64,000 nucleotides of DNA from Octopus vulgaris (Eukaryota): contig OX597838.1 of NCBI GenBank assembly GCA_951406725.2, positions 30,132,001 through 30,196,000 of the forward strand, in the 5' to 3' direction. The notes beneath the pieces were generated by a model, which did not search any database, had not been told where the DNA came from, and worked only from the letters and a program-made list of their open reading frames with translations. Of the stretch, positions 5,794 through 23,253 are shown piece after piece. The position numbers and the translations under genes are program-made. Each line of letters starts with the position of its first letter. Within the stretch, counting starts at the first letter, position 1.

Positions 5794-17297
<11,504 letters not shown>

Positions 17298-17590: not shown

Positions 17591-17718
<128 letters not shown>

Positions 17719-18074
17719 TATATGTATATATATAATATTTAATGTGGCGGATTAGTGCAGAGGGTTGTTCCATTAACATCCTGAACGAATTTCTTTTTCT
17801 TTTTTGTTTTTATTAACTTTTTTTTTCTATATTTTACAAGTGTTTTGCAACTCTTCATTGAGAAAATAACACAAGCAGAATATTGTAGCGATGCTTCACT
17901 CCCTAATCAGATGGGCATAGAACAATATGGCAGCCAAAATTCAGTATCTTTAACGAGGCACGAACCTCTATGTACACGAAGAGTCACCGACTGCAAAATT
18001 GCTGTAACACAACATGGTGAAAATGAGTCCACACCCATAAGGGACAGTAGCATGATATGTGAGAGTTTGTGTGA

Positions 18075-20304: not shown

Positions 20305-20351
<47 letters not shown>

Positions 20352-20420
20352 GGAGTAAACACATAAATGTGAAACAAGGTGGAAAAAAGAGTGCTCAAAT
20401 ACCAGTGGTAGAGTAATATG

Positions 20421-20552
20421 CTTTATTTAAAGCAGCAGAAAATTCCACAAAACCTGTTACTCTGAGTTTCGCGTTGCCGTTCGTCGGACAGTTTTTGAAA
20501 CGCGAAACTCAGAGTAACAGGTTTTGTGGAATTTTCTGCTGCTTTAAATAAA
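20421..20552. repeat. Short fold-back (55-bp arms) with minimal HHR-like motif on minus (20454-20491)
   Basis: Minus strand reads CTGT-CCGACGA-ACG GCAA CGC-GAAAC-TCAGAG-TA-ACAG; paralogous copy at 61768-61899. Confidence 0.7.
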
Positions 20553-20701
20553 GTATGTATATATATATATATATATATATCACAATCAAGGAACTGCCAT
20601 AATAGGCCATTCACCCACTAGAAATAACAGCCAAAAGCTTTAACCGCAAAATAACATTAATACCGTAAACCAGGAGAAAATTGAAAAACTTTTACCCTGT
20701 A

Positions 20702-20808
20702 ATTTCTTAGACGATGCACCGTTTCATCTACCGTTTAATGGTAAACTAACCTGATTAAATTAAATCAAGCCAATCCACCATAGGCCCTTAGACTCATCAG
20801 TAAGAAAT
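20702..20808 (-). ncRNA. Type I hammerhead ribozyme (inverted arm, distal unit)
   Basis: Reverse complement of the array HHR. Confidence 0.88.
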
Positions 20809-21183
20809 AGCCAAATCGGGACAGATATTTTTCACGAGGCATTCCTCTTGCTGCCTCGGCAGTATCTGACCTAAAATTTTCAAATCGTCGCACTCGCGCC
20901 AAATTTATCGGCAGCAAATGAACCACCGATTCCGTTACGGAACTAACCAGAAAATTCATAATTAATCAATATAGGGTGGCAAAAAATTTTGTAGAATTCT
21001 TTTGCCACCAGCGGCCTAGTAGGAAAAATTAAATAGTCATAAACCATTTTTACGTTCAACATCACAATCAAGGAACGGCCATAATAGGCCATTCACCCAC
21101 TAGAAATAACAGCCAAAAGCTTTAACCGCAAAATAACATTAATACCGTAAACCAGGAGAAAATTGAAAAACTTTTACCCTGTA

Positions 21184-21290
21184 ATTTCTTAGACGATGCA
21201 CCGTTTCATCTACCGTTTAATGGTAAACTAACCTGATTAAATTAAATCAAGCCAATCCACCATAGGCCCTTAGACTCATCAGTAAGAAAT
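21184..21290 (-). ncRNA. Type I hammerhead ribozyme (inverted arm, proximal unit)
   Basis: Reverse complement of the array HHR. Confidence 0.88.
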
Positions 21291-21707
21291 AGCCAAATCG
21301 GGACAGATATTTTTCACGAGGCATTCCTCTTGCTGCCTCGGCAGTATCTGACCTAAAATTTTCAAATCGTCGCACTCGCGCCAAATTTATCGGCAGCAAA
21401 TGAACCACCGATTCCGTTACGGAACTAACCAGAAAATTCATAATTAATCAATATAGGGTGGCAAAAAAATTTTGTAGAATTCTTTTGCCACCAGCGGTTT
21501 AGTAGGTGGCAAAAAGAATTCTACAAAATTTTTTTGCCACCCTATATTGATTAATTATGAATTTTCTGGTTAGTTCCGTAACGGAATCGGTGGTTCATTT
21601 GCTGCCGATAAATTTGGCGCGAGTGCGACGATTTGAAAATTTTAGGTCAGATACTGCCGAGGCAGCACGAGGAATGCCTCGTGAAAAATATCTGTCCCGA
21701 TTTGGCT

Positions 21708-21814
21708 ATTTCTTACTGATGAGTCTAAGGGCCTATGGTGGATTGGCTTGATTTAATTTAATCAGGTTAGTTTACCATTAAACGGTAGATGAAACGGTGC
21801 ATCGTCTAAGAAAT
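21708..21814 (+). ncRNA. Type I hammerhead ribozyme (array unit +1)
   Basis: Stem I ATTTCTTA/TAAGAAAT, core CTGATGA (21716-22), stem II GTCTA/TAGAT, GAAAC (21791-95), self-complementary stem III ACGGTGCATCGT, GTC cleavage triplet (cut after 21806). Confidence 0.9.
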
Positions 21815-22191
21815 TACAGGGTAAAAGTTTTTCAATTTTCTCCTGGTTTACGGTATTAATGTTATTTTGCGGTTAAAGCTTTTGGCTGTTATTTCTAGTG
21901 GGTGAATGGCCTATTATGGCCGTTCCTTGATTGTGATGTTGAACGTAAAAATGGTTTATGACTATTTAATTTTTTCCTACTAGGCCGCTGGTGGCAAAAG
22001 AATTCTACAAAATTTTTTTGCCACCCTATATTGATTAATTATGAATTTTCTGGTTAGTTCCGTAACGGAATCGGTGGTTCATTTGCTGCCGATAAATTTG
22101 GCGCGAGTGCGACGATTTGAAAATTTTAGGTCAGATACTGCCGAGGCAGCAAGAGGAATGCCTCGTGAAAAATATCTGTCCCGATTTGGCT

Positions 22192-22298
22192 ATTTCTTAC
22201 TGATGAGTCTAAGGGCCTATGGTGGATTGGCTTGATTTAATTTAATCAGGTTAGTTTACCATTAAACGGTAGATGAAACGGTGCATCGTCTAAGAAAT
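22192..22298 (+). ncRNA. Type I hammerhead ribozyme (array unit +2)
   Basis: Identical motif; predicted cut after 22290. Confidence 0.9.
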
Positions 22299-22675
22299 TA
22301 CAGGGTAAAAGTTTTTCAATTTTCTCCTGGTTTACGGTATTAATGTTATTTTGCGGTTAAAGCTTTTGGCTGTTATTTCTAGTGGGTGAATGGCCTATTA
22401 TGGCCGTTCCTTGATTGTGATGTTGAACGTAAAAATGGTTTATGACTATTTAATTTTTTCCTACTAGGCCGCTGGTGGCAAAAGAATTCTACAAAATTTT
22501 TTTGCCACCCTATATTGATTAATTATGAATTTTCTGGTTAGTTCCGTAACGGAATCGGTGGTTCATTTGCTGCCGATAAATTTGGCGCGAGTGCGACGAT
22601 TTGAAAATTTTAGGTCAGATACTGCCGAGGCAGCAAGAGGAATGCCTCGTGAAAAATATCTGTCCCGATTTGGCT

Positions 22676-22782
22676 ATTTCTTACTGATGAGTCTAAGGGC
22701 CTATGGTGGATTGGCTTGATTTAATTTAATCAGGTTAGTTTACCATTAAACGGCAGATGAAACGGTGCATCGTCTAAGAAAT
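22676..22782 (+). ncRNA. Type I hammerhead ribozyme (array unit +3)
   Basis: Same motif with one stem II change (CAGAT); predicted cut after 22774. Confidence 0.87.
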
Positions 22783-23002
22783 TACAGGGTAAAAGTTTTT
22801 CAATTTTCTCCTGGTTTACGGTATTAATGTTATTTTGCGGTTAAAGCTTTTGGCTGTTATTTCTAGTGGGTGAATGGCCTATTATGGCCGTTCCTTGATT
22901 GTGATGTTGAACGTAAAAATGGTTTATGACTATTTAATTTTTTCCTACTAGGCCGCTGGTGGCAAAAGAATTCTACAAAATTTTTTTGCCACCCTATATT
23001 GA

Positions 23003-23033
<31 letters not shown>

Positions 23034-23134
23034 AAGTATTGAATTTCTAAATCTCTCGTGGAGACATGTACGGTGGTGGGGCGATAGAATGGTTGTATAC
23101 TGTCAATCTAACAAGAACGTGACAGTATACAGCC

Positions 23135-23253
<119 letters not shown>

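What the first reader, a model, noticed from the sequence alone, without database searches (positions are those of the whole stretch)
20580..23010. 484-nt hammerhead retrozyme-like array with a head-to-head inversion, recently inserted in (TA)n
Seen: five near-identical units, each with a complete type I hammerhead (8-bp stem I, CUGAUGA, GAAAC, GUC). Predicted cuts after 21806, 22290 and 22774 would release exact 484-nt monomers. Established: metazoan non-LTR retrozymes are tandem HHR repeats that yield linear and circular RNAs and are thought to be mobilised by Penelope-type RTs. Inference: this is a young non-coding retrozyme family copied from a circular RNA by rolling reverse transcription. 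The paralogous TA tract in gene B's flank (61899-61965, after the same short hairpin) is empty, so the insertion probably post-dates the gene duplication. Because of the inversion, read-through transcription from either side would eventually produce sense ribozyme copies.
Basis: partly seen in the sequence, partly recalled or inferred. Interest (0 to 1): 0.92.

Follow-up and report, generated by a model that had tools for sequence, protein, structure and literature searches.

The report
Two-ended Penelope-type hammerhead retrozyme insertion
This is one of hundreds of young insertions of a small non-coding repeat with a predicted self-cutting RNA fold, and their mirror-image arms end at two different fixed points and carry the same variants, likely because a Penelope-type jumping-gene enzyme copies one RNA from both cut strands of the target DNA at once.

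Summary
The array is real: five type I hammerhead motifs in a 484-nt unit, a 930-nt minus arm and a 1,505-nt plus arm head-to-head inside (TA)n. The 24-nt ribozyme end occurs 987 times genome-wide. Folding predicts a two-copy (dimeric) ribozyme; a 69%-identical sister family keeps every stem by compensatory change. Of 45 inverted insertions with readable ends, 42 have one arm at each site, 3 have one off-site end, none has both at one site. Both arms share haplotype in 21 of 21 loci (13.8% across loci). In four loci neither arm contains the other. An autonomous Penelope-like family here obeys the same rule (19 of 19). This is the known Penelope 'tail' signature, here strict and countable, and favours priming from both target strands on one RNA over the published fold-back idea. 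A circular template is likely but unshown; cleavage, circles and the mobilising enzyme are untested. The scan noted the same geometry before in other genomes (four AI notes, unchecked).

The parts
20579..21506 (-). Left arm, 930 nt of unit sequence (67 + 482 + 379), sense reading leftward; its 3' end is site B (unit position 379) joined to (TA)n
21505..23010 (+). Right arm, 1,505 nt (53 + 3 x 484), sense reading rightward; its 3' end is site A (unit position 479-484) joined to (TA)n
21505..21506 (.). Head-to-head junction of the two 5'-truncated arms (unit positions 418 and 432), 2-nt microhomology
21708..21814 (+). Type I hammerhead motif, predicted cut after 21806
22192..22298 (+). Type I hammerhead motif, predicted cut after 22290
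22676..22782 (+). Type I hammerhead motif, predicted cut after 22774; one change (22754) in the outer pair of stem II
21184..21290 (-). Type I hammerhead motif, predicted cut after 21192 on the minus strand
20702..20808 (-). Type I hammerhead motif, predicted cut after 20710 on the minus strand
22906..23010 (+). 'Tail': the 105 nt between site B and site A, present at the end of the right arm and absent from the end of the left arm; both sites lie just 3' of a predicted hairpin
22305..22306 (+). GT splice-donor-like site 14 nt after the predicted cut (one per unit; same place in the sister family); used in one RNA-run contig from an older copy elsewhere
20558..20580 (.). Left (TA)n target tract
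23008..23033 (.). Right (TA)n target tract
61899..61965 (.). Empty paralogous (TA)n site after the same short hairpin
17594..17738 (.). Second empty paralogous (TA)n site (local tandem duplicate; lacks hairpin and array)

Best explanation
The array is one insertion of a young, dispersed, non-coding 484-nt hammerhead repeat whose two arms end at two different fixed sites and carry the same variants, likely because a Penelope-type enzyme nicked both strands of the (TA)n target and copied one RNA, probably a circle, from both nicks. Shown by sequence: the ribozyme motif and its conserved stems, the dispersed family, the (TA)n flanks, the two end sites, one site per arm, matching arm haplotypes, arms of several units, loci where neither arm contains the other, and the same rule in an autonomous Penelope-like family. 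Inferred steps: (1) a tandem transcript folds two neighbouring hammerheads into a double hammerhead and cuts out a monomer; (2) a host ligase closes it, and the lone ribozyme in the circle is then predicted to be inactive; (3) a dimeric GIY-YIG/RT protein of an unidentified Penelope-like element binds this RNA so that one subunit starts at site A and the other at site B; (4) each target 3' end is extended, both polymerases running the same way round the template past unit length; (5) repair joins the two 5'-truncated products by microhomology, giving a head-to-head array, or keeps only one arm, giving a direct array ending at A or B.
For: Ends: 25 of 25 inverted loci with both ends in the first set are A+B; 6 more and 11 more; 0 AA or BB among 45. 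One template: 21 of 21 informative loci have matching arm haplotypes against 58 of 420 across loci, 0 of 100,000 permutations; variants seen in no other of the 40 loci lie in both arms of four loci. Independent priming: in L339, L342, L343, L346 neither arm contains the other, in L343 the arms do not overlap at all. Penelope machinery: an autonomous RT/GIY-YIG family gives tail plus no-tail in 19 of 19 pairs, arms share variants in 9 of 19 against 3 of 342 across loci, and in 6 single-copy pairs neither arm contains the other. PMC11167929 shows a purified Penelope-like protein cutting and extending both strands from two internal RNA sites that bound the tail, and predicts a dimer. More than unit copying: arms up to 7 units, both arms over 484 nt in 17 of 26 inverted loci, no change at the cut seam (2 variants within 6 nt among 153 segments), 35 of 40 loci uniform at diagnostic sites. 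Ribozyme: unconstrained two-copy fold is the double hammerhead (-77.9 against -68.4 kcal/mol), monomer active fold 3.9 kcal/mol above the minimum; compensatory stems in the sister family.
Against: No cleavage, circle or expression of this locus shown; runs guessed to be RNA hold family sequence but not this locus's haplotype, and contigs cannot tell circle from tandem. No protein-coding partner found among four PLE-like protein searches and a GIY-YIG family search. PMC11167929 saw no difference in start site between strands in vitro, found the ribozyme dispensable for insertion and inactive without protein; 10.64898/2026.07.22.740005 saw cleavage in only 1 of 9 dimers. The base of stem II is G-U here, not the usual G-C. 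5 of 40 loci have mixed units at diagnostic sites, and L058 has two forms of one insertion, which a single circle does not explain; one unit-specific variant recurs once in each arm of L067. Three inverted loci (L135, L332, L336) have one end at neither site. Gene conversion or assembly polishing between arms could add to arm matching.
Confidence: 0.68

Rival explanations
1. Same two-site priming from both strands, but the template is an uncut linear multimeric transcript of an older array; the ribozyme is weak or irrelevant and no circle is involved.
For: Unprocessed RNA was the main substrate in vitro in PMC11167929. Mixed arrays (5 of 40) and the L067 variant in one unit of each arm fit a heterogeneous linear template. 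An RNA-run contig reads through the cut site of an older copy.
Against: Arrays could then only shorten between rounds, yet arms of 6-7 units occur in young loci; new variants are fixed in all units of a locus (7 of 7, 8 of 8, 5 of 5), which needs a one-unit bottleneck; most mixed units change towards a common allele, as polishing or conversion would (inference). Stems and the stem III palindrome are kept across families.
Confidence: 0.22
2. One primer only: the cDNA folds back and copies itself (self-priming), and the endonuclease trims one end, leaving the tail on one side, as proposed in PMC3846280 and PMC8557442.
For: Explains matching haplotypes and one-sided tails; some loci are near-symmetric hairpins (L334; Neptune L251, L253).
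Against: One arm should then contain the other. It does not in L339, L342, L343, L346 or in 6 single-copy autonomous pairs where the tail-less arm reaches further 5'. Most junctions are asymmetric with 0-3 nt overlap, not palindromes.
Confidence: 0.05
3. A single pseudo-LTR remnant inserted and then grew in place into a tandem array by unequal crossing-over, the route favoured in 10.64898/2026.07.22.740005; the inversion came later.
For: Uniform units within a locus are also what local amplification gives.
Against: Both arms are independently multimeric, end at fixed A and B sites in (TA)n and start at scattered 5' points in dozens of loci that are 97-100% alike; a later inversion would not give one site per arm.
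Confidence: 0.04
4. The array or its inversion is an assembly artefact.
For: This locus's own junction is not bridged by any listed contig in four other runs.
Against: The same rule holds at 42 loci and in a second element family; short-read contigs of run X17 hold head-to-head joints of this family at depth about 30; paralogous empty sites exist.
Confidence: 0.01

Closest known systems
Animal non-LTR retrozymes (Cervera and de la Pena 2020, PMC7229834; Li, Clavereau and Pollet 2026, 10.64898/2026.07.22.740005)
   Same: Non-coding tandem unit of a few hundred nt, low G+C, one type I hammerhead per unit, dimers to multimers, co-occurring with Penelope-like elements; dimer-type ribozyme as in amphibian retrozymes.
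   Different: Unit longer than the 170-400 nt RNAs of the 2020 paper (within the 51-972 nt of the 2026 one); 68-nt stem II; strict (TA)n targeting; head-to-head arms with two fixed ends, which the text read does not describe ('inverted' occurs 0 times in PMC7229834); no homology to a known pseudo-LTR found; RNA circles not shown.
EN+ Penelope-like elements with inverted pLTR and one-sided 30-40-bp tail (PMC3846280 Pen2a_Av; PMC8557442 Fig. 2; Poseidon PAc, PMC11167929)
   Same: 5'-truncated tandem and head-to-head copies, two 3' ends bounding a tail, tail on one end only, AT-rich or microsatellite targets, hammerhead with palindromic stem III upstream of the end sites.
   Different: No ORF; tail about 100-105 nt, against 30-40 nt published and about 27 nt in the autonomous family of this genome; both arms can be many units long; the one-tail rule is called 'often' or 'optional' in those papers and is without an AA or BB case here.
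L1 twin priming
   Same: Two target 3' ends prime on one RNA and give an inverted arm.
   Different: In L1 the second site is variable and the two segments do not overlap; here both sites are fixed and internal and the arms overlap over whole units.

Membership tests
Type I hammerhead ribozyme | Core CUGANGA, GAAA, NUH with stems I-III | tested here: met
   Five copies; stems kept with compensatory changes in the sister family
Type I hammerhead ribozyme | Rfam Hammerhead_1 at gathering score | tested here: not met
   22 bits against 34, E 0.09, all five copies
Type I hammerhead ribozyme | Self-cleavage at the predicted site | not testable with these tools
   Folding only; 5' truncation points show a mild excess at unit 249-260 that microhomology can also explain
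Non-LTR retrozyme | Tandem repeat with a complete type I hammerhead in at least two consecutive units | tested here: met
   criterion
Non-LTR retrozyme | Non-coding, no LTR structure | tested here: met
   Longest stop-free stretch 66 codons in the circularised unit; tandem layout; PBS and PPT were not searched
Non-LTR retrozyme | Dispersed, mobile family | tested here: met
   987 exact ribozyme ends, 429 exact B junctions; 40 loci on many contigs
Non-LTR retrozyme | Expressed as linear and circular monomer RNA | tested here: inconclusive
   Contigs of four runs guessed to be RNA cover the unit and the unit-to-unit joint, one contig is spliced; circle and ends cannot be read from contigs
Non-autonomous Penelope-like element | Head-to-head 5'-truncated copies with a one-sided tail | tested here: met
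   42 of 45 inverted loci; same in an autonomous family
Non-autonomous Penelope-like element | Sequence similarity to the pLTR of an autonomous element | tested here: inconclusive
   None in about 180 loci from five searches; these sample only a few of many families and mostly 1.5 kb of flank
Non-autonomous Penelope-like element | Target-site duplication | tested here: inconclusive
   Cannot be read inside (TA)n; TA or AT runs flank both sides in 36 of 40 loci
Autonomous Penelope-like element | RT plus GIY-YIG ORF | tested here: not met
   No ORF in the unit; no array among 40 is continuous with such an ORF

The most novel reading that the evidence does not exclude
Penelope-type integration is an obligately asymmetric two-primer reaction on a single RNA: a protein dimer starts one strand at each of two fixed sites, and on a ribozyme-made circle both polymerases roll round the same ring at once, writing two multimeric arms into one break. 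The retrozyme would hold the two sites in place with about 100 nt of folded RNA where autonomous elements use about 30. This would be the first genomic record of double rolling reverse transcription on an animal circular RNA.
Probability: 0.45. Interest if true: 0.8.

Novelty: new variant of a known kind. Interest (0 to 1): 0.6.

Why it matters
How Penelope-like elements make their tandem and inverted insertions is named as open in PMC8557442 and PMC11167929, and the link between retrozymes and Penelope enzymes rests on co-occurrence and phylogeny. Here the integration signature itself ties a retrozyme to that machinery, and the counts (one end site per arm, one haplotype per locus, arms that do not contain each other) separate two-primer from fold-back models. 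The 484-nt unit, with an intact young autonomous family in the same genome, is a small ready substrate for testing it in vitro. The element class and the one-sided tail are known, and the scan has noted the same geometry elsewhere, so the gain is mechanism, not a new kind of element.

Tried and rejected
Rfam: only sub-threshold hammerhead and hairpin-type matches. Coding role: no ORF. Ends at the ribozyme cut: rejected, ends lie at unit 379 and 479-484, the cut at 248. Pile-up of 5' ends at the cut as a sign of cleavage in vivo: 6 of 66 within 240-258, other clusters as dense, microhomology can explain it; inconclusive. Mobilising element: protein searches with four PLE-like frames and PF01541 gave loci with no pLTR-like match to either family, only neighbouring insertions. 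A loose contig end taken as a possible ORF start proved to be a host exon. An apparent AA pair 8.2 kb apart was two separate A+B insertions. Sequencing runs: no RNA holder on record was listed; summed contig depths were not used as copy numbers; this locus's junction was not bridged in four other runs. Search of earlier scan notes by sequence found nothing. Literature searches for a counted one-site-per-arm rule or twin priming in Penelope elements or retrozymes found none; most subscription papers are not in the library, and supplements (Fig. S2 of PMC11167929, Fig. S9 of PMC7229834, the bioRxiv tables) were not seen and may bear on novelty.

Full report
Observation. The window holds a 484-nt repeat at 20579-23010: a minus-strand arm of 930 nt and a plus-strand arm of 1,505 nt whose 5' ends meet at 21505-21506, between two (TA)n tracts. 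Units differ by 0-2 changes. There are five hammerhead motifs and three cut-to-cut monomers (484, 484, 482 nt). The genome has 2.8 Gb in 227 contigs; from recall of its repeats it looks like an octopus, which I did not test.

The ribozyme. Each motif has an 8-bp stem I, CUGAUGA, a 68-nt stem II region folding as a long hairpin, GAAA, a near-palindromic 12-nt stem III and GUC. Rfam scores it below threshold, but 0 of 20,000 random units of like composition gave the motif. As a monomer the active fold lies 3.9 kcal/mol above the minimum; two copies folded without constraints give the double hammerhead, with stems I and III between copies and the core unpaired (-77.9 against -68.4 kcal/mol). An older sister family found beside L066 (about 69% identical, 2,458 first-look candidates, 40 scored, 30 loci examined) has other sequences in stems I, II and III that still pair, and a perfect stem III palindrome in 24 of 35 motifs. 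Palindromic helix III and dimer action are described for metazoan and Penelope hammerheads in PMC4209133 (passages) and for axolotl retrozymes in PMC7229834 (one part of six plus passages). Activity is untested; the G-U pair at the base of stem II and the 1-of-9 success rate in 10.64898/2026.07.22.740005 (parts 1-3 of 5 read) call for caution.

The family. The unit search gave 574 candidates, 40 scored, full units 97-100% identical on many contigs. Exact counts: 987 ribozyme ends, 429 B junctions, 609 forward A junctions (reverse count inflated by overlapping matches). All 40 scored loci were examined. TA or AT runs flank both sides in 36 of 40. Two paralogous sites in the window are empty, and the unique flank is 95.6% and 97% identical to them, so the insertion likely post-dates the duplications. 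It lies about 3 kb from a putative first exon of a VWA-domain gene (Pfam hit for the 12.9-kb exon; gene model inferred).

Two fixed ends. With the unit numbered so that the cut is at 248, sense 3' ends fall at 379-381 (site B) or 473-484 (site A). Of the 40 loci, 26 are inverted; 25 have both ends and all 25 are A+B (L065 dropped: contig end); 14 were scored direct, 9 A and 5 B (L036 among them has a corrupted inverted arm). Random choice between two sites would give 25 of 25 with odds near 3 in 100 million (my arithmetic). A second set of 11 loci: 6 inverted A+B, 2 with a 15-nt arm of the other site, 2 direct, 1 (L135) with an off-site end. A third set picked by one end junction on contig C1 (20 regions, 21 insertions; all 11 unpaired B ends up to 140 Mb, 6 of about 50 unpaired A ends, 2 short pairs, 1 apparent AA pair): 11 A+B, 2 with an off-site end, 8 direct. 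Total 42 of 45 A+B, no AA or BB. In the sister family, picked for having an A end, 11 of 13 inverted loci end at B on the other side.

One template. Arms match at ten diagnostic sites in 21 of 21 informative loci, against 58 of 420 cross-locus pairs (0 of 100,000 permutations); variants private to one locus of the 40 lie in both arms in L038, L056, L065 and L067. Both arms exceed one unit in 17 of 26; arms reach 7 units; the cut seam shows no scar. Against a single circle: 5 of 40 loci are mixed at a diagnostic site, L058 has two forms of one insertion, and 'private' is judged on a sample.

Two primers, not fold-back. PMC3846280 (passages) proposes self-priming and PMC8557442 (passages) endonuclease resolution for the inverted copy and the one-sided 30-40-bp tail. 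Fold-back needs one arm to contain the other. In L339, L342, L343 and L346 neither does; L343 is a 79-bp insertion of unit 450-481 facing 333-379. As a control I took 20 inverted pairs of a young autonomous RT/GIY-YIG family with a hammerhead in its end repeat: 19 had both ends, all 19 had the roughly 27-nt tail on exactly one arm; arms shared variants in 9 of 19 against 3 of 342 across loci; of 13 pairs with a single-copy short arm, the tail-less arm was longer in 6 (plus one broken by a gap), the tailed arm in 5 and 2 were equal, counting the broken one apart. PMC11167929 (parts 1-2 of 4) shows cutting and extension of both strands from two internal RNA sites that bound the tail and predicts a dimer, but saw no strand difference and no need for the ribozyme. 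The genomic rule adds that within one product the two strands use different sites.

Expression. No listed run is on record as RNA. Contigs of four runs guessed to be RNA cover the unit and its end-to-start joint, carry commoner haplotypes than this locus, and cannot tell a circle from a tandem. One contig joins the unit's GT, 14 nt after the cut, to an exon behind an AG on contig C28; an older copy sharing the checked variants lies 20 kb upstream on the same strand, so at least one relative is likely transcribed in sense and spliced. Two large runs show most family sequence with a GUA triplet, so this locus belongs to a young minority branch.

Comparison and novelty. It meets the sequence definition of a non-LTR retrozyme and bears the integration signature of Penelope-like elements; membership by RNA behaviour and by homology to a partner is open. 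It differs by a tail about three times the published length and by two multimeric arms. Eight literature searches found no counted statement of the rule; supplements were not seen. After my own result, a word search of the scan's notes returned four AI notes on other genomes with the same geometry and reading; they are unchecked and not independent support.

Verdict. Observation confirmed; first reading partly supported. Odds: real hammerhead repeat family 0.97, Penelope-mobilised 0.9, two-site priming from both strands 0.85, circular template 0.6. New variant of a known kind, interest 0.6.

Noticed in passing
window 20350-20558 and 61710-61926: Short inverted hairpin beside the array with a minimal hammerhead variant (core at 20487 and 61834, minus strand); looks like a mini head-to-head insertion of another Penelope-type family, also seen in L195.
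   Followed up: partly
window 30451 (+), 37401 (+), 38178 (-), 26496 (-), 25006 (-) / 25184 (+): Further hammerhead-like motifs of unrelated sequence, four with palindromic stem III; 24872-25318 is a 217-nt-arm inverted repeat holding one such motif per arm.
   Followed up: no
window 23034-23136: About 100 bp between two TA tracts, with an internal hairpin, absent from both paralogues and from the rest of the window.
   Followed up: partly
window 17.4-19.4 kb versus 23.1-24.7 kb; 7-17.7 kb versus 35-62 kb: Local tandem duplication and several paralogous VWA-domain exons on the minus strand.
   Followed up: partly
L070-L099: Older, more abundant sister retrozyme family (about 485-nt unit, CCGAUGA core, same two end sites).
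   Followed up: yes
L100-L129, L221-L270, L197, L202: At least three young Penelope-like families with intact frames of 775-847 codons and many near-identical copies; the 775-codon family has a hammerhead and a 27-nt tail.
   Followed up: partly
L182 and L130 (G000:C28, 13.016-13.018 Mb and 12.9957 Mb): An older family copy appears to supply a splice donor to a host exon 20 kb downstream in one RNA-run contig.
   Followed up: partly
window 42645-46479 (+): Long LINE-type reverse transcriptase frames (RVT_1), with 3' fragments at 32776-33927 and elsewhere.
   Followed up: no
window 8743-9087, 15442-16077, 56560-56967: Fragments resembling Penelope-like RT or GIY-YIG proteins (GIY-YIG Pfam hit for the last; the others by recall).
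   Followed up: no
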